Positions 16,075 to 64,000 of a DNA stretch of 64,000 nucleotides are shown here, one piece after another. The translations under genes and the position numbers were made by a program. The notes under the pieces are model-generated. The model made no database searches and was not told where the DNA came from. It saw only the letters and a list, made by a program, of their open reading frames with translations. This DNA is from Pseudomonadota bacterium. Its GTDB lineage: Bacteria; Pseudomonadota; Gammaproteobacteria; JAKAQQ01. Within the stretch, counting starts at the first letter, position 1, and each line of letters opens with the position of its first letter. The stretch covers positions 28,533-92,532 of the forward strand of contig DAHWSH010000052.1 of assembly GCA_027338645.1 (NCBI GenBank). The letters are read 5' to 3'.

Positions 16075-19000
16075 ATGCCGAAGCCGACCGTCCCCCACCG
16101 TCCCTCGCCGATCTCGAACCCGCTGGCCTTCCTGGCCGTGCTCCTGCTTCTTTCCGGGCCGGCCCTGGCCCCCGCCAAGGCTTCCCTCATGCCCCCGATC
16201 CTCTACAACCGCCTGCGCTGGCGTTTCGTCGGTCCCTACCGGGGCGGCTGGGTGACCACCGTGGCCGGCATCCCCGGACGGCGTAACACTTACTATATCG
16301 GGACGGCCGACGGAGGCCTGTTCGTCACCCACGACAGTGGACGAACCTGGCAGCCCCTCTTCCAGCACCAAGCGGTTTCCTCGATCGGGGCCATCGCGGT
16401 GGCGCCCTCCGACCCCAAAATCCTCTACGCCGGAACCGGCCAGGCAGGGCTTCGCTCCGACATGTCTTTCGGTGACGGCATCTACCGCTCGGACAATAGC
16501 GGCCGCACCTGGAAGTGGATTGGTCTCAAGTCGAGCCAGCATATCGCGGACATTTCGGTGGCACCCCACCACCCGAACCGGGTTTTGGTCGCGGTTTTGG
16601 GCCATGCCTTCGGTCCTAACCGGGAACGGGGGGTTTTTCTGACCACGAATGGGGGGCGGAGCTGGAAGAAAACCCTCTACGTGAACCCGAACCTCGGCGC
16701 CATCGATCTGATCCGTGATCCCTCCCGGCCGAATCTCGTCTATGCCGCACTCTGGAATTTCCGCTTCCCGTTCTACGGCCATTATGGCGTACTGAATGGT
16801 CCCGGGGGCGGACTCTGGCGCTCCGACAACGGCGGGGTGACCTGGAAGCGCCTGCCGGACCTCGGGCTGCCCCGGCGGGATCTCGGCCGCATCGGCCTCG
16901 CCATCGTTCCCGGCTCCAAGGGCCGGGAGCTCTACGCCCTGGTCGGTGCCCACCGGGGCGGGCTCTTCCGCTCGACCGATGGCGGCCGTCTTTGGTCGGT
17001 CGTCAACCGGGATCCCCGCCTCTGGGGCGGCGACTGGTATTTCGGGGAAATCAACTCGGATCCCGGTCATCCCGGAACCCTCTTCGTCATGAACACCGCC
17101 TTCTACGAGTCCACGGACGGTGGACGTCATTTCGTCTCCATCAAGGGGTCGCCGAGCGGGGATGACTTCCACACCCTGTGGATCGATCCCCAAAACCCGC
17201 GCCGGATGATCGTGGGCGCCGATCAGGGCGCATCGATCAGCGTGGATGGCGGACTGACCTGGAGCTCCTGGTACAACCAGCCGACCGCCCAGATCTACCA
17301 TGTGGCGACGGACAACCGTTTTCCCTTCCGGATCTACGGCACCCAGCAGGACTCCGGGAGCATCGGCATTCGCAGCCGTGATTTCCGCGGCTTCATCAGC
17401 AACCATTCCTGGTATTCGACGGCGGGGGGCGAAGCCGGCTATGTGCTGCCCGACCCCGCGAACCCCGACATCATCTATGGTTCGAGCATCGTGGGGAGCG
17501 TCTCTCGCGACAATCTCTACACCCACGAGTCCGTCAACATCTCGCCCTGGCCGGTACCCGCCTACGGGGTCCCCCCCTGGCGGCTGCGCTACCGCTTTCC
17601 CTTCAACACGGCCCTAGCCCTCTCGCCCCGTAACCCCGATGTGCTTTATGCCGGTGCCCAGGTGATTTTCCGCTCGTCCAACCAGGGACAGAGTTGGCGG
17701 GTGATCAGTCCGGATCTGGCCCGCACCCGGCGGCCGACCCGGCTGCCGCAAGATGCGGTGCCGGTCACTCTCAAGAACGCGACGGCCTTGGGATACGGGG
17801 TGGTCTACACGATCGATCCCTCCCCCATCCGCAAGGGTGAAATCTGGGCAGGGACCACGAATGGACGGGTCTGGGTCACCCAGGACGGCGGACGCCACTG
17901 GCGAGACGTGACACCGACGGGACTCCCGGCCTGGACCCGGATCGAAAACATCGCCCCCTCTCCCTTCAACCCCGCCGTGGCTTACCTCTCGGCCAATCGC
18001 CACCGGCTCGACGATTTCCGGCCCTTCCTCTATGTAACCCAGGATTTCGGCCGTCACTGGAAGAGCATCACGCAGGGCATCCCGGCTCCGGCTTACCTTC
18101 ACGTCATCCGACCCGACCCCATCCGCCGGGGGCTGCTTTATGCCGGAACCGAAACCGGCTTTTACCTCTCTTTTGACAATGGCCGCCATTGGCAACCCTT
18201 CCAGGAGAACCTGCCCACCGTTTCCGTCCGCGACATCGCGATCCACGGCAACTCGCTCGTGATCGCGACCCACGGACGGGGCTTCTGGATGATCGACGAT
18301 CTCGCTCCCCTGCGCGAGATCCGCTCGGAGTGGGTCCATCGTCCACTCGTCCTCGAAAAGCCGGCTCCGGCCTACCGACTCCGGCGCACCCTCTACCGCG
18401 ATGAGCCATTCCCGCCGGAGACTCCTCATGCCCGGAACCCGGCAACCGGGGTTGTGATCGATTACTTCCTCGGCCGCAAACCGACCGCTCCCCTCGTGCT
18501 CACGATCCGGACCCTCGACGGAAAACTGATCCGGCGCTACACGAGCACCATGCACTTTCCTGCTCCGCCACCTGCACCCTTTCCCAAACTCTGGATCGAG
18601 CGGCAAAAGGCTCCCACCGTCCGGGTCGGCCTGAACCGTTTCGTCTGGCACCTGAGAGCGACTCCCCCGGAAGCCATCCGGCACGCGTACCAGGGCCCGG
18701 GGCTCTACCACAACACGCCGATCACCCCTCGCGGGCCCATCGTTCCCCCCGGGCGATACCGGCTCAGCGTCCGCATCGGCGCCCTCCACGCCACCACCCG
18801 GTTTCTGGTGCTCGCCGACCCGCGCGTCCATCTCGGGGCGGCAGGCTACGCGATCCAGTACCGGGTCGCCCGGAGGCTCGCTCGCGATCTCACCCAAGAC
18901 ACCCGGGCGTTCCGGGCGGCCAAAAGCCGACTCCATGCGCTCGCTGCCCACGGGGCACCGGCCAAAAAGCAGCTCACGCTGCAGCACCTGATCCGGCATC

Positions 19001-19143
19001 TCGCGGTATTGAACGGAGAGTTCGGTTTCCTCATGGGGACCATCGAAGGAACGGATGCCGTTCCCACCCAGCCGGAAATGCAGGAGATGCACCGATCCGA
19101 GATCCGTTTGGAAAAAGTCCAGGCGGCGCTGCGCCGGGTCTGA
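16075..19143 (+). CDS. Secreted BNR/Asp-box repeat protein with two beta-propeller-like halves (Vps10/sortilin-like, GH74-like)
   Basis: 1022 aa from the ATG that precedes a signal peptide (LAFLAVLLLLSGPALAPAKA). Many S-x-D-G-G-x-T-W Asp-box repeats (SGRTW, GGRSW, GGVTW, GGRLW, GGRHW). Confidence 0.6.
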   Translation: MPKPTVPHRPSPISNPLAFLAVLLLLSGPALAPAKASLMPPILYNRLRWRFVGPYRGGWVTTVAGIPGRRNTYYIGTADGGLFVTHDSGRTWQPLFQHQAVSSIGAIAVAPSDPKILYAGTGQAGLRSDMSFGDGIYRSDNSGRTWKWIGLKSSQHIADISVAPHHPNRVLVAVLGHAFGPNRERGVFLTTNGGRSWKKTLYVNPNLGAIDLIRDPSRPNLVYAALWNFRFPFYGHYGVLNGPGGGLWRSDNGGVTWKRLPDLGLPRRDLGRIGLAIVPGSKGRELYALVGAHRGGLFRSTDGGRLWSVVNRDPRLWGGDWYFGEINSDPGHPGTLFVMNTAFYESTDGGRHFVSIKGSPSGDDFHTLWIDPQNPRRMIVGADQGASISVDGGLTWSSWYNQPTAQIYHVATDNRFPFRIYGTQQDSGSIGIRSRDFRGFISNHSWYSTAGGEAGYVLPDPANPDIIYGSSIVGSVSRDNLYTHESVNISPWPVPAYGVPPWRLRYRFPFNTALALSPRNPDVLYAGAQVIFRSSNQGQSWRVISPDLARTRRPTRLPQDAVPVTLKNATALGYGVVYTIDPSPIRKGEIWAGTTNGRVWVTQDGGRHWRDVTPTGLPAWTRIENIAPSPFNPAVAYLSANRHRLDDFRPFLYVTQDFGRHWKSITQGIPAPAYLHVIRPDPIRRGLLYAGTETGFYLSFDNGRHWQPFQENLPTVSVRDIAIHGNSLVIATHGRGFWMIDDLAPLREIRSEWVHRPLVLEKPAPAYRLRRTLYRDEPFPPETPHARNPATGVVIDYFLGRKPTAPLVLTIRTLDGKLIRRYTSTMHFPAPPPAPFPKLWIERQKAPTVRVGLNRFVWHLRATPPEAIRHAYQGPGLYHNTPITPRGPIVPPGRYRLSVRIGALHATTRFLVLADPRVHLGAAGYAIQYRVARRLARDLTQDTRAFRAAKSRLHALAAHGAPAKKQLTLQHLIRHLAVLNGEFGFLMGTIEGTDAVPTQPEMQEMHRSEIRLEKVQAALRRV

Positions 19144-55383: not shown

Positions 55384-56631
55384 TCAACGATACGCCTTGA
55401 AGACGAGAGTGCCGTTGGTACCGCCGAACCCAAAGGAGTTCGACAGGACGATATCCAGACGGGCCGGTCGGGACTCCTGGGGGACATAGTCCAGAATACA
55501 TCCCTCACCGGGCTGGTCCAGGTTGAATGTCGCCGGGATGACCTGATCGCGCAGTGCGAGCAGGCAGAAAATGGCCTCGATGGCCCCGGCTGCCCCCAGG
55601 AGGTGCCCGGTCACCGATTTGGTGGAACTCACGGCGACGTGTCGCGAGGCCGCTCCCCAGACGGCCTCGATCGCCCGGGATTCGGCGAGATCACCGACCA
55701 CGGTCGAGGTCCCGTGGGCATTGATGTAGTCGACATCGCCGGGTGCCAAGTGCGCATCTTTGAGGGCAAGCCGCATGCAGAGCGCCGCGCCTGCCCCATC
55801 TTCGGGAGGCGCAGTGATGTGGAAGGCATCGGCACTGACGCCAAAGCCGATGAGTTCCCCCCAGATCCGGGCTCCCCGGGCCCGCGCATGCTCGAGCGAT
55901 TCCAGAATCAGGACAGCGGCCCCGTCCGACAGCACGAAACCATCGCGATCCCGGTCCCAGGGCCGGCTGGCCCGGCCGGGATCTTCATTCCGGGTCGACA
56001 AGGCACGCGCCGCGCAAAAACCGGAGACCCCGCCGGGCGAGATGGCCATCTCGGCACCGCCCGCGAGCATCACATCCGCATCGCCCCGTTCAATGATCCG
56101 CGCCGCATAACCGATACAGTGGGTTCCCGTGGTACAGGCGGTGGCCAGTCCCAGGTTGGGGCCTCTCAGCTGATAGAGGATCGACAGATGTCCCGAGACC
56201 ATGTTGATGATGGAACTCGGTACGAAAAACGGTGAAACCTTTTTGGGTCCGTCGTAATCCCGGACCAGGTCACGGATCTTCTCGATGCTGAGGATCCCCC
56301 CGATCCCGGCACCGATGATCACGCCCCGACGTTCTGAAGCCGCTCCCTCGGCCACCTCCAGCCCGGCCGACTCGAAGGCCAACCGTCCCGCCGCCACCCC
56401 GTACTGCATGAAAGGGTCCATTTTGCGGGCCTCTTTCGGAACCAGGTACCGGTTGGGATCGAAATCCTTGACCTCACCGGCAAAACGGGTGGGATAGTTC
56501 GCGGCATCAAAATGAGTGATGGTGGAGAAACCGTGGCGTCCCTCGAGGACATTCTTCCACGCCGTCTCCACATCGACTCCGACCGGCGAGATCAGACCCG
56601 CGCCGGTGACCACGACCCGCGTGCCGGTCAC
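55384..56631 (-). CDS. fabF: Beta-ketoacyl-ACP synthase II
   Basis: Active-site Cys region ATACTTG and His/His motifs. 415 aa. Confidence 0.95.
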   Translation of the reverse strand: MTGTRVVVTGAGLISPVGVDVETAWKNVLEGRHGFSTITHFDAANYPTRFAGEVKDFDPNRYLVPKEARKMDPFMQYGVAAGRLAFESAGLEVAEGAASERRGVIIGAGIGGILSIEKIRDLVRDYDGPKKVSPFFVPSSIINMVSGHLSILYQLRGPNLGLATACTTGTHCIGYAARIIERGDADVMLAGGAEMAISPGGVSGFCAARALSTRNEDPGRASRPWDRDRDGFVLSDGAAVLILESLEHARARGARIWGELIGFGVSADAFHITAPPEDGAGAALCMRLALKDAHLAPGDVDYINAHGTSTVVGDLAESRAIEAVWGAASRHVAVSSTKSVTGHLLGAAGAIEAIFCLLALRDQVIPATFNLDQPGEGCILDYVPQESRPARLDIVLSNSFGFGGTNGTLVFKAYR

Positions 56632-56707
56632 GGCCCGACCCCCTTTTCAAGAGCCCGTCCCGGCACCCGCCTCCCGCCTCCGGACTGTCTGGATCTCCTA
56701 CCCCTGT

Positions 56708-56950
56708 TCAATGGGCCTCGGTATGGGCCTTGATGTAATCCACGGCCTGCTGGACAGTTGTGATCTTTTCGGCCTCCTCATCCGGAATCTCGCACTCGAA
56801 CTCCTCTTCCAGGGCCATCACCAGTTCCACATTATCCAGCGAATCGGCACCCAGATCGTCGACGAATGAGGCCTCAGGCTTGACCTGCTCTTCCTTGACG
56901 CCCAACTGCTCCACGATAATTTTCTTGACTCGCTCTTCAATATTGCTCAT
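56708..56950 (-). CDS. acpP: Acyl carrier protein
   Basis: LGADSLD phosphopantetheine attachment motif. 80 aa. Confidence 0.95.
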
Positions 56951-57082
56951 GTGTCTCGAGTCCTCATCAGATTGACAAAATGACGCCGCGGCGCCGGAAG
57001 GGCAATTGTAGCTAAAAAAAATCCCCGATCCGCAACTCGGTTATGAAGTCCATAAGATTCATGACCTTTGACATGAAAGTGT

Positions 57083-57832
57083 TCATGACATGTACATGCC
57101 GCCATTGACCTGCAGGGTTTCTCCCGTGATGTATCCGGCCCCCTCCGAGGCCAAAAAGCCGACACAGGCGGCCACATCCTCGGGGGTGCCGAGCCGCCCC
57201 AGGGGAATCCGCTCCCTCAGCCGCTCCCGCTGTTGCGGGTTGAGCGTGCGGGTCATGTCGGTCTCGATGAAGCCCGGCGCCACAGCGTTGACCGTGATGC
57301 CCCGCGACCCCACTTCCTGGGCCAAAGAGCGCGTGAGGCCCAATAATCCCCCCTTCGCGGCCGCGTAGTTGACCTGGCCGGGATTGCCGGACAGAGCCAC
57401 CACGGAAGCCATGTTGATGATGCGGCCCCGCCGCTCCTTGAGCATGGTCCGCAGGCAGATCCGGGTGAGGCGGAAGACGGCGTTGAGGTCGACCTCGAGC
57501 ACCGTCTGCCAGGCGTCCTCGCCCATCCGGAGCATGAGGTCGTCGCGGGCGATCCCGGCGTTGTTGACCAGCACCCGGACTGGCCCGAAGCGACCTTCGA
57601 ATTCCCGCACGCTCTCCTCCAGCGCCCGCGCATCCGTCCGGCCGAGGTCGAGTGCCCAACCGACACCAGCCCAGCCGTGACGGGACAATAGTTCACCGAC
57701 CCGCGTGGCCCCAGACTCGGTCGTTGCCGTCCCGACCACGGTCAACCCGTCGGCGCCCAGGCGTTCGAGGATCGCCTGTCCGATTCCCCGGCTGGCCCCG
57801 GTGACTAAAGCAAAACCTGACTTTCCGTTCAT
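57083..57832 (-). CDS. fabG: 3-oxoacyl-ACP reductase
   Basis: TGASRGIG, NNAG, YAAAK catalytic motifs. Confidence 0.95.
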   Translation of the reverse strand: MNGKSGFALVTGASRGIGQAILERLGADGLTVVGTATTESGATRVGELLSRHGWAGVGWALDLGRTDARALEESVREFEGRFGPVRVLVNNAGIARDDLMLRMGEDAWQTVLEVDLNAVFRLTRICLRTMLKERRGRIINMASVVALSGNPGQVNYAAAKGGLLGLTRSLAQEVGSRGITVNAVAPGFIETDMTRTLNPQQRERLRERIPLGRLGTPEDVAACVGFLASEGAGYITGETLQVNGGMYMS

Positions 57833-57844
57833 GGATCTCCCCGG

Positions 57845-58774
57845 TCAACGGATTTCGGCATATTGAAGGATCGTCTCGCGGTTCTCAAGGCCCACATGCC
57901 CGAGCTCGGGCGCGATGCGCCGATTGAGACCGATGAGGACCCGTCCCGGGCCGCATTCCACGATGCGGGAAACCCCATACCGGTCCCGCAGATGCCGGAC
58001 CGTTTCCGTCCAGCGCACCGGACTTGCAAGCTGGGCCACCAGGGCTTCGCGGATGGACGCGGCTTCGAGATGCTCCTCGAGGTCGGCATTATGCACAACC
58101 GGCAGGACCGGTGGCTTGAGATCGACCTGGGCCAGTTCCTGAGCGTAGGCGCAGGATGCTTTCTTCATGAGCGAACTGTGGGCCGGCACGCTCACGGGCA
58201 GGAGGAGGGCCCTTTTCGCACCGGCGGCCCGGGCAGCCCCGATGGCCTGTTCCACGGCCACCCGCTCGCCCGCAATCACGACCTGGCCGGGGCAGTTGTA
58301 GTTGACGGCCTCGACGATCCCAGCGGTCACCGTCCGGCAGACCTCCTCGATGACGCCATCATCCAGGCCCAGAACGGCCGCCATGGCACCGGTGCCCGGC
58401 ACCACGGCCTCCTGCATGAGCCGCGCGCGCACCGCAACCAGGCGGGCCAGGGCCGGGATCTCGAGCACACCGGCCGCGTAGAGCGCCGCATATTCACCCA
58501 GGCTGTGACCGGCTACCGCGACCGGCATCATCCCCCCCTGGGCACGCTGGAGGGCATAAAAGGCGATGTCCGTCGCGAGCATGAGCGGTTGGGTCACGGT
58601 CGTGACATCCAAGGCCTCGGGGGGGCCCTCGATCGCGAGGCGCCTGAGATCCTGGCCGGCCGCCTGTGAAACCGTTTCAAAAATACCCACCAGAATGGGA
58701 TCGTGGGCGAGGTCCGCCAACATGCCGACCTTCTGCGATCCTTGACCCGGAAAAACCATGGCGATCTGGTTCAT
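57845..58774 (-). CDS. fabD: Malonyl-CoA-ACP transacylase
   Basis: FPGQGSQ and GHSLGEY active-site motifs. 310 aa from MNQIAMV. Confidence 0.9.
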   Translation of the reverse strand: MNQIAMVFPGQGSQKVGMLADLAHDPILVGIFETVSQAAGQDLRRLAIEGPPEALDVTTVTQPLMLATDIAFYALQRAQGGMMPVAVAGHSLGEYAALYAAGVLEIPALARLVAVRARLMQEAVVPGTGAMAAVLGLDDGVIEEVCRTVTAGIVEAVNYNCPGQVVIAGERVAVEQAIGAARAAGAKRALLLPVSVPAHSSLMKKASCAYAQELAQVDLKPPVLPVVHNADLEEHLEAASIREALVAQLASPVRWTETVRHLRDRYGVSRIVECGPGRVLIGLNRRIAPELGHVGLENRETILQYAEIR

Positions 58775-59463
58775 GGATGATCTCCAACGGGCGCTGAGGG
58801 AACTGGAGCTGCGGCTCTGGCCTGCCGGCGGTCCCTCCTGCGATCGAGGGCGATCCACAGGATGCCCAGAAGAGTCCCGGCGATCGCGCCATAGAGGTGG
58901 GCGATGGTGAGAATGGGACCGCCGATGGCCCAGTGCGAAGTCGGCAACGGTCCGAACAGCCGTTCGTAAGTCAGCTTGAGGATCAGGAAGGCCAAAAGCC
59001 AGCGCCCGCCCCACTCACGGCGGTAGACGGCGAGGAGCGCACCGGCGGCCCAGTAGGTATGGAGGACCCCCGAGATGCCATCGAACCAGAAAACCCCCGG
59101 CGAGAACAGGAAAACGCCAAGACCGACCGCCAAGGCGCCCACGGCCGTTGCGACCCAGAAACGCCGTACGCCGAGGATGGCACCAAAAAGCAGCCAGAGA
59201 AGGACGAATCCGGACAGGTCGAGTCCGAGATGCGCCCAGCTCGAGTGGATGAAATTCGCCGTGACGAGCCGCCACCACTGGCCCGCCAAGACCTTCCCTC
59301 GATCATAGCGGAGCGCATGCCGCATGGCCGCACCGCCGAACTGCAGGAAGGTACAGACCAGAACGATCACGATGGCCGGCCACGCTTCCCGGCCGGCCCG
59401 ACGGAGCCACTCGCGGACGGGAGGGCGGCGAGTTCGCCGGTGGGTTGCGGGAGAGGAAACCAT
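58771..59463 (-). CDS. Rhomboid-family intramembrane serine protease, rhombosortase-like
   Basis: 230 aa, about 6 TM helices. YDR...GQWWRLVTANFIHSSWAHL matches the rhombosortase N-terminal signature. Catalytic GISG serine and AHLYG histidine. Start overlaps the fabD stop. Confidence 0.6.
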   Translation of the reverse strand: MVSSPATHRRTRRPPVREWLRRAGREAWPAIVIVLVCTFLQFGGAAMRHALRYDRGKVLAGQWWRLVTANFIHSSWAHLGLDLSGFVLLWLLFGAILGVRRFWVATAVGALAVGLGVFLFSPGVFWFDGISGVLHTYWAAGALLAVYRREWGGRWLLAFLILKLTYERLFGPLPTSHWAIGGPILTIAHLYGAIAGTLLGILWIALDRRRDRRQARAAAPVPSAPVGDHP

Positions 59464-59475
59464 GCCTGACCTGTT

Positions 59476-59580
59476 TCAACTAGTGCTATGATGAGAACCG
59501 TACCCCGCCGCTTCAGGCACGATCCTTGCGGACGGTTGCAGGGTACAGGTTCTTCGCGTGTCGCTACAGGAACTAGTGTA
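59476..59580. promoter_or_regulatory. Low-GC divergent intergenic region with a repeated AACTAGTG motif
   Basis: The 127-nt spacer between rhombosortase and gspG is AT-richer than its surroundings. It carries two copies of AACTAGTG, each containing the ACTAGT palindrome, at 59479-59484 and 59572-59577, 93 nt apart. Confidence 0.2.
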
Positions 59581-59590
59581 ACCGATCCCC

Positions 59591-60061
59591 ATGGCCCCCC
59601 GATCTCTCAGCCGACGACTTGACCGGATTTTCCGGGCCGGACACCGTCCGGACCCCGGGTTCACCCTGATCGAAATCATGGTCGTGGTCGTGATTTTGGC
59701 CATTCTCGCGACCATCATCGTGCCCAACGTGATCAACAAGCCCGAAGAGGCCCGGATCACCAAAGCCAAAGCCGACATCCGATCCATCGTGGCGGCTCTC
59801 GACATGTACAAACTCGACAACTATCAGTATCCGACCACCTCCCAGGGGCTCAAGGCACTCGTGGTCAAACCGAGCTCTTCCCCGATACCGCCTCATTGGC
59901 ATCACTATCTGAACCAGATCCCGATCGATCCCTGGGGCCATCCCTACAAGTACCTCTACCCCGGGGTCCATGGCACTTTCGATGTCTGGACCGACGGCCC
60001 CCCGGGGTCGTCCAGCCATCATCGGGTGATCGGCAACTGGAACCTCGACCGGTCCCGATGA
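59591..60061 (+). CDS. gspG: Type II secretion system major pseudopilin GspG
   Basis: Prepilin motif G|FTLIEIMVVV with Glu+5 and the GspG core (KAKADIRSIVAALDMYKLDN...DPWGHPY). The 23-residue leader is unusually long. Confidence 0.85.
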   Translation: MAPRSLSRRLDRIFRAGHRPDPGFTLIEIMVVVVILAILATIIVPNVINKPEEARITKAKADIRSIVAALDMYKLDNYQYPTTSQGLKALVVKPSSSPIPPHWHHYLNQIPIDPWGHPYKYLYPGVHGTFDVWTDGPPGSSSHHRVIGNWNLDRSR

Positions 60062-60645
60062 TCCGGCATCAGGCGCCGGGGGCGCGCGGATTCACCCTGA
60101 TCGAGATCCTGGTCGTCCTGCTCATCGTGGGCATCCTGACCGGTATCGCGGTCCTTTCGCTCAGCTCACTGGGCCAGGCCTCGCGACGCGAACAGGCGGC
60201 ACGGCGACTGGCCGGCCTCATCGAACTGGCCTCCCAGCAGGCCGTGATCCAGGGCGAGACCTATGGGCTGTGCCTGGAAACCCACCGCTACTGGTTCCTT
60301 CGGGACGAGCACGGCCAGTGGGTGCATTTCGCCCACGGCTCGATTTATCGTCGACGAAGCCTGCCCCGGGCTCTCACGATCAGCGTGGACTTGACGGGAA
60401 CCCGACTCCACCTGCCGACCCGGCAACCCTCCAAAACCACGGTCCGACACAAGGCCCACGCCTCGGGCCACCGAGAGCCCCTTCGGGTCGCCCACCGCCC
60501 ACCGGACATCCTGATCCTGCCGAACGGCGAGCTCAGCGCTTTCGAGATCGGCATCTCGGCACGTGGCCACCAGCGGTCCTACCGCATCCGGGGCACGGCC
60601 ACGGGACACCTCTCGCTGATCCCGCTGCATCACGCCTCGACATGA
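60058..60645 (+). CDS. gspH: T2SS minor pseudopilin GspH
   Basis: GFTLIEILVVLLIVGIL prepilin N-terminus. Start overlaps the gspG stop. Confidence 0.7.
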   Translation: MIRHQAPGARGFTLIEILVVLLIVGILTGIAVLSLSSLGQASRREQAARRLAGLIELASQQAVIQGETYGLCLETHRYWFLRDEHGQWVHFAHGSIYRRRSLPRALTISVDLTGTRLHLPTRQPSKTTVRHKAHASGHREPLRVAHRPPDILILPNGELSAFEIGISARGHQRSYRIRGTATGHLSLIPLHHAST

Positions 60646-61124
60646 GGATGTCTGGACAACGCGCATTCACGCTGCTTGAAGTCCTGATCGCCCTCGCCAT
60701 CGTCGGCATCGGACTGCTCGCCCTGCTCGGAACCACGATCGAAAACACGCGCGTGGCGCATGGACTCGAGGCCCGCACTCTGGCCGGGTACGTCGCCGCC
60801 AATGAGATCGAAGAACTGCGCCTTGCCCCGAGCTGGCCCACACTGGGCCGGAGTACGGGCCACGCCCGTCTCGGGGGCATCCGCTGGCGGTGGACGGTCC
60901 ATGCCGACCATACCGCCGCCCCCGGGATCCTCCGGGTCAAAGTCGGCGTCCGTCCGGTCGGCAGCCGCACGGGCGCACTCGTCACCCTGACCGGATTTTT
61001 GGGCCGTTCGCTCCTCAACCGGCCGAGCCCCCTGACCAGCACCCCTCCCCCTCCCGGGGTCATGCCGAGCCCGATCGGGCCGGGACTGCCGGGTCCCCCA
61101 CTCCCGGGAGGCCCGGGCACCTGA
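60642..61124 (+). CDS. gspI: T2SS minor pseudopilin GspI (with Pro-rich C-terminal tail)
   Basis: AFTLLEVLIALAIVGIGL prepilin N-terminus. Body is about 120 aa plus a ~35-aa P/G-rich extension. Confidence 0.65.
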   Translation: MRMSGQRAFTLLEVLIALAIVGIGLLALLGTTIENTRVAHGLEARTLAGYVAANEIEELRLAPSWPTLGRSTGHARLGGIRWRWTVHADHTAAPGILRVKVGVRPVGSRTGALVTLTGFLGRSLLNRPSPLTSTPPPPGVMPSPIGPGLPGPPLPGGPGT

Positions 61125-61128
61125 ACCC

Positions 61129-61734
61129 ATGGACCGCTCCCGCGCCTTCACCCTGATCGAGATCCTGGTCGCCACCGCGATCCTGGCCCTGCTCGCGATC
61201 ATGGCTTACGGATCGCTCGAAACCATTATCCGGGAACGGACCATCACCCGTCGCCGGGGACACGAACTCGAAGCACTCCAGATGACCATGCTGCTCATGA
61301 GCCAGGATCTCGCGGAAGCCGCCCCGCGCCCGATCCGTGCCTCAAGCGGGATCCTCAAACCGGCACTGCACGGCGGGCGGGGCGAACCGGGCCCGCTCCT
61401 GGTCCTCACGCGGGATGGCGATGCCGACCCGGCCGATGCCCACCGATCAGACCTCGAACGGGTGGGTTACGGATTAGTCGGCCACCATCTCGTCCGCTTC
61501 ACCTGGCCGGTCCTCGACCGCGCCGTACCGGCCCCACCGCAGCGGGATACCCTGCTCCACGGCGTCCGCTCGTTCCGCGTCCGCTTTCTCGGCCCGGCGG
61601 GCCACTGGCATCACCACTGGCCACCGCTCGATGTGCCTCCGGCGGCCGATCTCAACCATCGCCCCCTGGCCGTCGAGATCCGGCTCCGGACCCGGGCCTG
61701 GGGGCGGATCCAGCGCATTTTCGAGTTGCCATGA
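61129..61734 (+). CDS. gspJ: T2SS minor pseudopilin GspJ
   Basis: AFTLIEILVATAILAL prepilin N-terminus. 201 aa. Confidence 0.75.
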   Translation: MDRSRAFTLIEILVATAILALLAIMAYGSLETIIRERTITRRRGHELEALQMTMLLMSQDLAEAAPRPIRASSGILKPALHGGRGEPGPLLVLTRDGDADPADAHRSDLERVGYGLVGHHLVRFTWPVLDRAVPAPPQRDTLLHGVRSFRVRFLGPAGHWHHHWPPLDVPPAADLNHRPLAVEIRLRTRAWGRIQRIFELP

Positions 61735-62645
61735 AACGGGTCTCGCAGCGGGGAGTCGCCATCCTGATCGCCCTCGTGGTCATCGCCATCGCGGCCGGCA
61801 TCGCCGCCCGCATGATCTGGGATCGCAACCTGGAGTTGCACCGGACCGAAAACCTGCTGCGCTTCCAGCAAAACTATGAGTACGCATTGGGTGCCGAATC
61901 CTGGATCGACAGCCTGATGCACGAAGAGCTGGGCACCGGGCCCACGGTCAGCCTGACCCAGACCTGGGCCCAAAAGCTCCCGCCCTTTCCCATCCCGCAC
62001 GGTGCCATCGTCGGACAAATCACCGACCTCCAAGGATTTTTCAATCTCAACAACCTCTCGGCCCAGGGAGGAGGAATCGATCCTAACCAGCTCGGGGTTT
62101 TCGAACGGCTCCTCGTCGAACTCCGGATCAACCCGGAGGTCGCGCAGGCTGTGGCCAGCTGGGTCGCGAGTTCACCCGGCGGATCGATGTCCTCGATGAA
62201 CAGCACCTATGCCGCGGAAGACCCGCCCTACCGGGCTCCCATGGCCCCCATGGCCAGCACCACTGAGTTGCGCTTGATCGCCGGCCTCACGATCAACCAG
62301 TACCAGCGCCTGCGGCTGTGGGTCGTCGCCCTGCCGGTTCCCACCGCCATCAATGTCAATACCGCTCCGCTCGAGGTGCTGGACGCCCTGGTCCCCGGCA
62401 TCACCCCCTCGGCGCTCGAGGCGATTCTCAAGCAGCAGCGCGCCGGTGGGTTCGGGAGCGTGGGTGAGTTCGAGGGGCTCTTGGGACAGACGGTGACCGT
62501 TCCGATCGGCACTGACAGCAGCTTCTTTAGGCTCCACCTGGATATCCATTTTGCCGGGACCCGCTTCCACTTGAGCAGCCTGCTGTACCGCGAGCCCAGC
62601 GGTTCTTTCCGGGTCTACACCCAGACCCTGGGCTCGGGGGGCTAG
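61731..62645 (+). CDS. gspK: T2SS minor pseudopilin GspK
   Basis: GVAILIALVVIAIAAG N-terminus without Glu+5, as in GspK. 304 aa. Confidence 0.8.
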   Translation: MKRVSQRGVAILIALVVIAIAAGIAARMIWDRNLELHRTENLLRFQQNYEYALGAESWIDSLMHEELGTGPTVSLTQTWAQKLPPFPIPHGAIVGQITDLQGFFNLNNLSAQGGGIDPNQLGVFERLLVELRINPEVAQAVASWVASSPGGSMSSMNSTYAAEDPPYRAPMAPMASTTELRLIAGLTINQYQRLRLWVVALPVPTAINVNTAPLEVLDALVPGITPSALEAILKQQRAGGFGSVGEFEGLLGQTVTVPIGTDSSFFRLHLDIHFAGTRFHLSSLLYREPSGSFRVYTQTLGSGG

Positions 62646-62787
62646 CCCTCACGATCCCGGATCCGCTACGCCAGATGCGCAAAGCGGGTGAGATCAGGTA
62701 TGATCACCGGGGGGTGAAAAGTCTGCACATCTTTCGCGTCTCCTCCCCACTCACCGATCACGTCATGGATTCCGCAGCGAGCCCGAG

Positions 62788-64000
62788 ATGGTGGAACAGA
62801 TCCTGATCCGACTAGAGCAGGACGCAAGCGCTGCGGACTGGTGGGTCCTCGACACCCAGGGGCACCGCCGCGGCGGCATCGGTCACGCGCCTCTTAACGA
62901 GATCGCCCGCCACACGCCCTCGCGCCGCGTCGTGGTAGCCATCCCCAGCCGCGAGATCACGCTCACCCGCCTCCGGCTGCCCATGCGATCCCGTCGGCAA
63001 TGGGCGGAAGCCATCCCGTTTGCCCTGGAGGAGCAGGTCGCCGGGGATCTCGACACCCTGCATTTCGCTTCCGGCAACCCGGACCAGAACGGGAATATCC
63101 CCGTCGCCATCGTCGAACGGGCCTGCCTCGAGAAATGGCTCGCCATCCTCTTCGAGGCTGGCCTTCATCCCGACGAACTCTGGCCGGACCTCTTTCTCCT
63201 CCCCGCCTCCCCCTCCGCCTGGAACATCGCCCGCAGCACCGATCTTTTGATCCGTGGGCCGGGCTTGCCGGGCTGCGCGGTGGCGGACCGACTGGCGCCG
63301 GAAATCCTGAAACGGATCCTCCGTGACCTCCCTGAAGTCGCCCGACCCCGAGAAATCGCGTTCTGGGGAGAACCGACTGATCCGGCAGTCCCCATCCTCG
63401 AGCCCATGGCGACCCAGCTGGGTTGCTCCTTCAGGTTTAGCGATGGGTTTTGGTACGAAGAGGCCAGCCGCGCTCCCATCCAGGGCCTCAATCTCCTGCA
63501 GGGTGCGTTTGCTCCCGGCCACCAGCGGCAGGCCCGCTGGGCCCGCTGGAAACCTGTCGCCCGGCTCGGCAGTGTCGTCCTGGCAGTGGCACTTGCCCTC
63601 CTCATCATCCAGCGCATCCGTCTCGCATCGACCGCCCAGACGTGGCAAACGCGGGTCCATCAGATTTTCCATCGGGTACTGCCGGGTCAGCCCTACGTGT
63701 CCCCACGCGCACAGATCGAACAGGCACTCCGGCTCCGGTCCGCCGGTCCGGCCGGGACGCTGCGCTTTCTCCACTTGCTGGTCCGGATGTCCAAGAACCG
63801 CCCGACCACGATCCATCTTCTCACCCTGAGCTATCGTGCGCGGGCAATCGGCCTCCAGTTCACCGCACCCAGTCTGACGGCGGCCCGGGATTTCGAGCAA
63901 TCGATCGTCCGGAGAGCCCACTGGCTCCGCCAGCACCAGAAAGTGGAGAAGGATCCGGGCGGTATCAGGATCCAGGTCGTCTACCGGGCGCGAGGTCCGT
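62788..64000 (+). CDS. gspL: T2SS protein GspL (cytoplasmic domain, TM, periplasmic domain), 3' end beyond window
   Basis: Open frame from the ATG at 62788 through the window end; absent from the ORF track because it has no stop. Cytoplasmic GspL-like region, TM helix LGSVVLAVALALLIIQ around residue 255, then a periplasmic region. Confidence 0.55.
   Translation, partial: MVEQILIRLEQDASAADWWVLDTQGHRRGGIGHAPLNEIARHTPSRRVVVAIPSREITLTRLRLPMRSRRQWAEAIPFALEEQVAGDLDTLHFASGNPDQNGNIPVAIVERACLEKWLAILFEAGLHPDELWPDLFLLPASPSAWNIARSTDLLIRGPGLPGCAVADRLAPEILKRILRDLPEVARPREIAFWGEPTDPAVPILEPMATQLGCSFRFSDGFWYEEASRAPIQGLNLLQGAFAPGHQRQARWARWKPVARLGSVVLAVALALLIIQRIRLASTAQTWQTRVHQIFHRVLPGQPYVSPRAQIEQALRLRSAGPAGTLRFLHLLVRMSKNRPTTIHLLTLSYRARAIGLQFTAPSLTAARDFEQSIVRRAHWLRQHQKVEKDPGGIRIQVVYRARGP

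What the first reader, a model, noticed from the sequence alone, without database searches (positions are those of the whole stretch)
58771..64000. Rhombosortase-like protease transcribed divergently from a T2SS pseudopilin operon (gspGHIJKL) that lacks gspCDEF upstream
The rhomboid carries the rhombosortase signature YDR...WWRL.T..F.H, and rhombosortases process GlyGly-CTERM cargo. In Vibrio cholerae such cargo (VesB) is exported by the T2SS. Here the protease shares a 127-nt low-GC control region with gspG, which argues for a coupled secretion-and-sorting module. No GlyGly-CTERM substrate is encoded in this window. The operon starts at gspG, so the secretin, ATPase and platform genes must be elsewhere (split T2SS).
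Basis: partly seen in the sequence, partly recalled or inferred. Interest (0 to 1): 0.55.

Follow-up and report, generated by a model that had tools for sequence, protein, structure and literature searches.

The report
Rhombosortase gene beside type II secretion operon
A membrane protease of a known family (rhombosortase) sits head-to-head with a type II secretion operon and leads a fatty-acid synthesis operon; many related bacteria keep this layout, which adds gene-order support to a protease-secretion partnership already shown in Vibrio cholerae.

Summary
Window 58771-59463(-) encodes a rhombosortase: TIGR03902 scores 120 bits against a cutoff of 84, while the GlpG models score about 20 bits. 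It has the catalytic Ser131/His189, the Ser+4 His, WRxxT and AHxxGxxxG. A 127-nt spacer separates it from an intact gspG-H-I-J-K-L operon. On longer contigs the operon continues with gspM and gspN.

No gspC/D/E/F/O and no GlyGly-CTERM cargo lies in the window or in the extra flank I could reach.

The protease is therefore the first gene of a fabD-fabG-acpP-fabF operon.

In 80 species-level relatives, 58 keep gspG divergent from the protease and 52 also keep fab downstream. Fab was seen without gsp only once, at a contig end where gsp could not be assessed. One relative has the protease inside a complete gspCDEF/gspG-N cluster, with a GlyGly-CTERM-like protein nearby. A promoter-like TGcTATnnT motif faces gspG in 39 of 58 spacers.

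This is a new member of a known system. The conserved gene linkage appears unreported and is modestly interesting. Cargo and co-regulation remain untested.

The parts
58771..59463 (-). Rhombosortase (rhomboid-family intramembrane serine protease, 230 aa).
   Evidence: TIGR03902 at 120.2 bits against a cutoff of 84, and Pfam Rhomboid. Ser131, His135 and His189 are invariant in a 37-sequence alignment. The exact protein is on record on 24 or more contigs.
58771..58774 (-). ATGA overlap of the rhombosortase stop codon and the fabD start codon.
   Evidence: Sequence read directly and coordinates computed. The same junction appears in the called genes of L001-L006.
57845..58774 (-). fabD (malonyl-CoA:ACP transacylase).
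   Evidence: TIGR00128 at 300 bits against a cutoff of 260.9.
57083..57832 (-). fabG (3-oxoacyl-ACP reductase).
   Evidence: ORF. Pfam adh_short/KR on the identical called gene.
56708..56950 (-). acpP (acyl carrier protein).
   Evidence: ORF. Pfam PP-binding.
55384..56631 (-). fabF (3-oxoacyl-ACP synthase II).
   Evidence: ORF. Pfam ketoacyl-synt N and C domains.
59464..59590 (.). 127-nt divergent intergenic region between the rhombosortase and gspG.
   Evidence: GC is 0.567 against 0.638 for the window. The generic sigma-70 scan finds nothing. Blocks conserved with L007 and L008 are visible in the alignment.
59484..59492 (+). TGCTATGAT, an extended -10-like element facing gspG, 21 nt from the rhombosortase ATG.
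   Evidence: TG[CT]TA[TA]nnT faces gspG in 39 of 58 relatives' spacers and faces the other way in 6 of 58. TGCTAT occurs in 27 spacers against 2.1 in shuffles, with no reverse-complement occurrences. Promoter function is inferred, not shown.
59575..59580 (-). TACACT, a candidate -10 for the rhombosortase-fab transcript (weak).
   Evidence: Conserved only in the two nearest relatives, L007 and L008. Inferred.
59591..60061 (+). gspG, the major pseudopilin, with a 22-residue leader before G|FTLIE.
   Evidence: TIGR01710 at 151 bits against a cutoff of 88.85. Pfam T2SSG and N_methyl.
60058..60645 (+). gspH, a minor pseudopilin.
   Evidence: TIGR01708 at 101 bits against a cutoff of 80.
60642..61124 (+). 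gspI, a minor pseudopilin with a Pro-rich C-terminal extension.
   Evidence: TIGR01707 at 67 bits against a cutoff of 44.35, covering residues 9-104 of 160. Translation.
61129..61734 (+). gspJ, a minor pseudopilin.
   Evidence: TIGR01711 at 126 bits against a cutoff of 64.85.
61731..62645 (+). gspK, a minor pseudopilin.
   Evidence: NF037980 at 263 bits against a cutoff of 130.
62788..64000 (+). gspL, cut by the window end (404 of 406 codons). gspM and gspN follow on longer contigs.
   Evidence: TIGR01709 at 220 bits against a cutoff of 65. Called genes of L001.

Best explanation
The gene at 58771-59463(-) encodes a catalytically intact rhombosortase. By analogy with V. cholerae RssP, it cuts the C-terminal GlyGly-CTERM membrane anchor off exported proteins in the inner membrane. 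The new C-terminal glycine is then joined to a glycerophosphoethanolamine-containing lipid. The lipid-tagged protein is passed to the type II secretion system and displayed on the cell surface.

In this organism the protease gene is physically wedged between two operons. It is head-to-head with gspGHIJKLMN, the pseudopilus and inner-membrane half of a split T2SS that includes the lipid-cargo helper GspN. It is also translationally coupled to fabD-fabG-acpP-fabF. Cargo genes and gspCDEF/O lie elsewhere in the genome.

Shown: family identity, gene order, conservation of that order, and a conserved promoter-like element facing gspG.

Inferred: the substrate, the lipid modification, export through this T2SS, and any co-regulation.
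For: - Identity: TIGR03902 is above its cutoff and the GlpG models are far below theirs. The features listed by Haft & Varghese 2011 (PMC3237569) are all present: catalytic Ser, Ser+4 His, WRxxS/T and AHxxGxxxG.
- Intact T2SS genes: gspG-L pass their equivalog cutoffs. gspM and gspN follow on longer contigs.
- Conserved linkage: of 80 species-level loci, 58 have gspG divergent and immediately upstream of the protease, and 52 also have fab downstream. Fab without gsp appeared only once, at a contig end where gsp could not be assessed.
- The gspG-protease pair persists with different downstream neighbours: gspF in L019, recG in L048, DUF2063/DUF692-like genes in L075.
- L019 has gspC-D-E-F, the protease on the opposite strand, then gspG-N. 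A 524-aa protein with a GGSGGG + hydrophobic + RNRGRK tail lies about 1 kb beyond gspN.
- In two loci not linked to gsp (L044, L060), a GlyGly-CTERM-like protein lies next to the protease. This matches the known rule for 'dedicated' single-cargo systems and shows that my tail search works.
- An extended -10-like TGcTATnnT faces gspG in 39 of 58 spacers.
- Mechanistic precedent: PMC6219818. GspN is needed for lipidated T2SS cargo in Acinetobacter baumannii: PMC12802150. gspN is detectable in 36 relatives' loci.
Against: - No GlyGly-CTERM cargo was found in the window or within 10 kb of 57 of the 58 gsp-linked loci. The source genome could not be searched as a whole.
- Three genomes with a rhombosortase but no recognisable GlyGly-CTERM are on record.
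- NCBIfam did not report TIGR03501 on the three cargo-like tails at E<=0.1, so they are called by architecture only.
- The 58 linked loci belong to related gammaproteobacterial lineages (Steroidobacteraceae, Woeseiaceae, Granulosicoccaceae, Cocleimonas, unclassified MAGs). Part of the conservation is therefore shared ancestry.
- The tight coupling to fabD gives an alternative transcriptional context.
- No expression data exist.
Confidence: 0.7

Rival explanations
1. Frozen synteny. The protease is a normal rhombosortase serving scattered cargo. Its position next to gspG is a historical accident, kept because both neighbours (an essential fab operon and a T2SS operon) are rarely rearranged. There is no regulatory or assembly coupling.
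For: - All linked loci come from one broad gammaproteobacterial group.
- The spacer sequence is not alignable beyond the closest relatives.
- In V. cholerae the functional partnership works without any reported gene linkage, and Haft & Varghese found no T2SS subclass marked by rhombosortase.
- 19 of the 80 relatives have the protease away from both gsp and fab.
Against: - The gspG-protease pair survives changes of the downstream neighbour to fabD, fabG, gspF, recG or DUF2063.
- Fab adjacency was never found in a locus where gsp adjacency was shown to be lost.
- Protease identity falls to 30-40% while the pair stays within a short spacer.
Confidence: 0.25
2. The protease is primarily a fab-operon gene. 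It is co-transcribed and co-translated with fabD-fabG-acpP-fabF, and its level follows membrane-lipid synthesis. This would suit an enzyme whose product is thought to be joined to a phosphoethanolamine lipid. The gspG neighbour matters only because it shares the promoter region.
For: - ATGA overlap with fabD in the window.
- The gap from the protease stop to the fabD/fabG start has a median of 30 nt and is <=60 nt in 43 of 53 loci. In 10 loci that lack fabD at this position, the protease sits directly before fabG.
- The usual plsX-fabH genes are absent upstream of fabD here.
- The lipid modification of VesB is documented in PMC6219818.
Against: - Fab genes are housekeeping and often have internal promoters (general knowledge, not tested here).
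- At least three loci keep the gspG pairing without fab.
- No terminator or promoter evidence either way.
Confidence: 0.35
3. In this clade the protease has a non-canonical substrate. This could be a T2SS component or a cargo class with a divergent tail, as in the few genomes that have a rhombosortase but no recognisable GlyGly-CTERM.
For: - No cargo is seen near 57 of 58 linked loci.
- Three 'rhombosortase but no GlyGly-CTERM' genomes are reported.
- A few gsp-linked proteases replace the Ser+4 His with Tyr or Asp.
Against: - Genomes with several cargo proteins never place them next to the protease, so absence nearby is expected.
- Active-site-proximal motifs are the same in linked and unlinked proteases.
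- L019 has a cargo-like tail beside a linked protease.
- Pseudopilins have the opposite membrane orientation to GlyGly-CTERM anchors (general knowledge).
Confidence: 0.08

Closest known systems
Vibrio cholerae RssP (rhombosortase) with VesB and the Eps type II secretion system.
   Same: Same protease family (TIGR03902) with the same catalytic and signature residues. A T2SS that includes GspN is encoded in the same genome. The expected pathway is the same: cleavage of the GlyGly-CTERM anchor, lipid attachment, then T2SS-dependent surface display (PMC6219818).
   Different: Here the protease gene is head-to-head with gspG and leads the fab operon. No such linkage is described in the papers I could search. 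Cargo was not identified. There is no experimental evidence for this organism.
Dedicated rhombosortase/GlyGly-CTERM pairs (Haft & Varghese 2011, Table 3).
   Same: Same enzyme family. Two relatives in my set (L044, L060) show this layout, with a cargo-like gene next to the protease.
   Different: In the window the neighbours are gspG and fabD, not a cargo gene. By the published rule this points to several dispersed cargo genes.
E. coli GlpG rhomboid protease.
   Same: Same superfamily and Ser-His dyad. GlpG chains are the only solved structures that a profile of this family matches.
   Different: The GlpG models score about 20 bits against cutoffs of 250-335. The Ser+4 residue is His rather than Tyr.
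Split type II secretion loci, for example Legionella lsp and Acinetobacter gsp genes (from my own knowledge).
   Same: The pseudopilin and assembly-platform genes are separated from the secretin, ATPase and platform genes.
   Different: The break point here is occupied by the rhombosortase. One relative (L019) still has both halves flanking it.

Membership tests
Rhombosortase (TIGR03902) | Scores above the curated cutoff of the family model and well above the GlpG models. | tested here: met
   120.2 bits against a cutoff of 84. GlpG models score 20.5 and 15.9 bits against cutoffs of 335 and 250.
Rhombosortase (TIGR03902) | Catalytic Ser in TM4 and His in TM6 (AHxxGxxxG). | tested here: met
   GISGVLH with Ser131 and AHLYGAIAG with His189. 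Both are invariant in 37 homologues and in all 81 locus sequences.
Rhombosortase (TIGR03902) | His at Ser+4 in place of the Tyr/Phe of other rhomboids (SIMBAL signature; PMC3237569). | tested here: met
   His135. The feature is defined. Most relatives share it; a few have Tyr, Phe or Asp.
Rhombosortase (TIGR03902) | WRxxS/T motif in loop L1. | tested here: met
   WWRLVT at residues 63-68.
Rhombosortase / GlyGly-CTERM system | At least one GlyGly-CTERM protein in the same genome. | not testable with these tools
   None in the 64-kb window or in about 20 kb of extra flank. The whole genome could not be searched.
Rhombosortase / GlyGly-CTERM system | Cleavage of the GlyGly-CTERM tail and lipid attachment. 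| not testable with these tools
   Known only from V. cholerae experiments (PMC6219818).
Type II secretion system (Gsp) | Major and minor pseudopilins GspG-K with a prepilin cleavage/methylation motif. | tested here: met
   Equivalog hits above cutoff for G, H, I, J and K. Pfam N_methyl matches G-J only, not K.
Type II secretion system (Gsp) | Assembly-platform proteins GspL and GspM (plus GspN in some systems). | tested here: met
   GspL at 220 bits against a cutoff of 65. T2SSM and T2SSN Pfam domains on the next two genes of contigs with identical sequence.
Type II secretion system (Gsp) | Secretin GspD, ATPase GspE, platform GspF, GspC and the prepilin peptidase in the same genome. | tested here: inconclusive
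   Absent from the window and the reachable flanks. Present next to the protease in relative L019.

The most novel reading that the evidence does not exclude
In a large group of mostly uncultured Gammaproteobacteria (Woeseiaceae, Steroidobacteraceae and relatives), the rhombosortase has become a built-in accessory of the type II secretion gene cluster. It is kept head-to-head with gspG through a conserved promoter region and is paired with GspN. Together they would form a dedicated route for C-terminally lipid-anchored surface proteins. Placement at the head of the fab operon would tie the sorting step to membrane-lipid supply. Haft & Varghese looked for a T2SS subclass marked by rhombosortase in 2011 and did not find one; this would be the first.
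Probability: 0.3. Interest if true: 0.5.

Novelty: new member of a known kind. Interest (0 to 1): 0.3.

Why it matters
The rhombosortase-T2SS partnership rests on experiments in one organism, Vibrio cholerae, and on co-occurrence statistics. A gene linkage conserved across dozens of species, including one cluster where the protease sits inside a complete gsp locus, is independent support that the two act in one pathway.

It also points to abundant sediment and soil bacteria (Woeseiaceae, Steroidobacteraceae) as users of lipid-anchored, T2SS-exported surface enzymes. It suggests a concrete test of whether GspN carries rhombosortase products.

For this window alone, the result is a correct but ordinary annotation.

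Tried and rejected
- The generic sigma-70 scan of 58600-59800 found no promoter.
- The AACTAGTG direct repeat in the spacer (2 copies against 0.17 expected) is absent from all relatives. I do not treat it as a conserved operator.
- Folding the putative gspG leader and the 142-nt gspK-gspL gap gave no structure better than shuffles (z = -0.64 and +1.37).
- Rfam found only two tRNAs in the window.
- NCBIfam did not report the GlyGly-CTERM model on cargo-like tails, so I relied on tail architecture. My first regex also picked up the last helix of rhombosortases themselves as false positives; these were filtered out.
- The 1022-aa Sortilin/BNR protein in the window was checked as possible cargo. 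It has a signal peptide but no sorting tail.
- I looked 10 kb beyond the window start for the missing gsp genes and found none.
- Linked and unlinked proteases do not differ in active-site motifs. I dropped the idea of a distinct catalytic subclass.
- The neighbour-joining tree is too weakly resolved to count independent gains or losses.
Full report
**What is there.**
The minus-strand ORF at 58771-59463 (230 aa) is a rhomboid-family protease. It scores 120.2 bits on the NCBIfam rhombosortase model TIGR03902 (cutoff 84). The two GlpG models score only 20.5 and 15.9 bits against cutoffs of 335 and 250. Pfam sees a Rhomboid domain.

These are the features Haft & Varghese used to define the family (PMC3237569). 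No rhombosortase structure is solved. The only PDB matches are weak hits to GlpG.

On the plus strand, gspG, H, I, J, K and L follow a 127-nt spacer. Each passes its equivalog cutoff and has the expected Pfam domains. gspL is cut by the window end. On contigs that carry the identical protease, the operon continues with gspM and gspN, then a UDP-glucose dehydrogenase gene.

The spacer GC is 0.567 against 0.638 for the window, which is unremarkable.

More important, the protease TGA overlaps the fabD ATG (ATGA at 58771-58774), and fabG, acpP and fabF follow. The protease is therefore the first gene of a fab operon that lacks the usual plsX-fabH upstream.

**Missing parts.**
tblastn with E. coli K-12 GspC, D, E, F and O finds nothing in the window. 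Pfam tables for the rest of the window and for 10 kb beyond each end show housekeeping genes only.

No coding-frame ORF in the window ends in a Gly/Ser motif, hydrophobic helix and basic cluster. A 1022-aa secreted Sortilin/BNR protein in the window has no such tail.

The whole source genome could not be searched. The existence of cargo and of gspCDEF elsewhere therefore remains an inference.

**Conservation.**
A scan of one genome per species returned 555 relatives, of which the best 80 were kept. I ran tblastn with the window's proteins and scored the context of each locus.
- 52 loci have gspG divergent and fabD or fabG downstream.
- 3 loci have gspG only.
- 3 loci have gspG with the downstream side missing.
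- 1 locus has fab downstream, but the contig ends before gsp could be seen.
- 19 loci have neither, and 3 more show no fab but are cut upstream.

Fab adjacency was never seen in a locus where gsp adjacency was shown to be lost. The linked loci include Steroidobacteraceae, Woeseiaceae (including a Woeseia sp.), Granulosicoccaceae, Cocleimonas and many unclassified MAGs. Protease identity to the window falls to 30-40%.

The gspG-protease pair survives different downstream neighbours: recG in L048 and DUF2063/DUF692-like genes in L075. In L019 the downstream neighbour is gspF. That locus reads gspC-D-E-F, then the protease on the opposite strand, then gspG-N. L019 therefore looks like the unsplit state, with the protease at the later break point. 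It also carries a 524-aa tandem-95-repeat protein ending in GGSGGGAFNPLFLSLFALAGLVRNRGRKSA about 1 kb beyond gspN.

In two unlinked loci, L044 and L060, a protein with a similar tail lies next to the protease. That is the published pattern for single-cargo systems. The published rule also says multi-cargo genomes never place cargo next to the protease, so the lack of nearby cargo in linked loci is expected.

**Control region.**
The generic promoter scan finds nothing. Comparison across relatives does show a TG[CT]TA[TA]nnT element, which resembles an extended -10. It faces gspG in 39 of 58 spacers and faces the other way in 6 of 58. TGCTAT is the most enriched non-coding hexamer: 27 spacers against 2.1 in shuffles, with none on the other strand.

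In the window this element is TGCTATGAT at 59484-59492, only 21 nt from the protease start codon. Any promoter for the protease must therefore lie within or beyond the gspG promoter, so the two transcription units probably overlap or compete. This is inference. A TACACT candidate at 59575-59580(-) is conserved only in the two closest relatives.

On the other side, the gap between the protease stop and the fabD/fabG start has a median of 30 nt and is at most 60 nt in 43 of 53 loci. That is operon spacing.

**Mechanism.**
In V. cholerae, rhombosortase cleaves the GlyGly-CTERM anchor of VesB. The exposed glycine receives a glycerophosphoethanolamine-containing group. The T2SS then places VesB on the cell surface (PMC6219818).

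GspN, an AsmA-like protein with a hydrophobic groove, is needed for lipidated T2SS cargo in Acinetobacter baumannii (PMC12802150). gspN is part of this operon and is detectable in 36 relatives' loci.

The simplest reading is the same pathway here, with cargo encoded elsewhere. Identity and gene order are shown. Substrate, modification, export route and co-regulation are inferred.

**Rivals.**
- The linkage may be frozen synteny without functional meaning.
- The protease may be mainly a fab-operon gene whose level follows lipid synthesis.
- The substrate may be non-canonical. Three genomes with a rhombosortase but no recognisable GlyGly-CTERM are on record.

Linked and unlinked proteases share the same active-site motifs, which argues against a separate catalytic subclass.

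**Novelty.**
Both families and their partnership are known. Haft & Varghese wrote that they could not find a T2SS subclass marked by rhombosortase. None of the 29 papers in the library that mention rhombosortase, as far as I checked them, describes this gene linkage.

The window itself is a new member of a known system. The conserved three-way layout is a modest, apparently unreported, comparative observation.

Noticed in passing
window 61017-61121: GspI carries a C-terminal extension of about 35 residues that is rich in Pro and Gly (RPSPLTSTPPPPGVMPSPIGPGLPGPPLPGGPGT), beyond the region covered by the GspI model. Its length differs (158 or 160 aa) between otherwise near-identical contigs.
   Followed up: partly
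window 62646-62787: There is a 142-nt non-coding gap between gspK and gspL inside an otherwise tightly packed operon. Several relatives also have 140-200 nt here. No stable RNA fold (z = +1.37) and no Rfam hit.
   Followed up: partly
window 59478-59485 and 59571-59578: The direct repeat AACTAGTG occurs twice in the spacer and nowhere else in the 64 kb (0.17 expected). It is not present in any relative's spacer.
   Followed up: yes
L019 1594-16447: A complete cluster: gspC-D-E-F, the rhombosortase on the opposite strand, gspG-N, a small gene on the opposite strand that I guessed by eye to be HNH-like (not tested against any family), then a 524-aa tandem-95-repeat protein with a GlyGly-CTERM-like tail.
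   Followed up: partly
L044 889-1719; L060 10267-12957: A cyclophilin-type peptidyl-prolyl isomerase (L044) and an SBBP-repeat beta-propeller protein (L060) each carry a GlyGly-CTERM-like tail and lie directly next to a rhombosortase that is not linked to gsp.
   Followed up: partly
L078 18826-19632 (-): A protein ending in PEPGVLGLLGFGIAGVAFLRRRA, which is a PEP-CTERM-type (exosortase) tail, lies in a genome that also has the gsp-linked rhombosortase.
   Followed up: no
L048, L075, L077, L060 and others (rhombosortase ORFs): A few proteins that score as rhombosortase replace the signature Ser+4 His with Tyr, Phe or Asp. One of them (L060, Phe) still sits next to a cargo-like gene.
   Followed up: partly
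window 16075-19143 (+): A 1022-aa Sortilin-Vps10/BNR repeat protein with a clear signal peptide and no C-terminal sorting tail. It could be a soluble secreted protein.
   Followed up: partly
L001 1992-2587 versus L003 752-1422: Beyond gspN and the UDP-glucose dehydrogenase gene, contigs with otherwise identical genes differ in the partner of a PhdYeFM antitoxin gene: an unannotated 121-aa gene in L001 and a PIN-domain toxin in L003. This suggests a variable toxin-antitoxin spot.
   Followed up: no
window 55384-59463 (-): The fab cluster lacks plsX-fabH upstream of fabD. In 10 relatives fabD is also missing from this position and the protease sits directly before fabG.
   Followed up: partly
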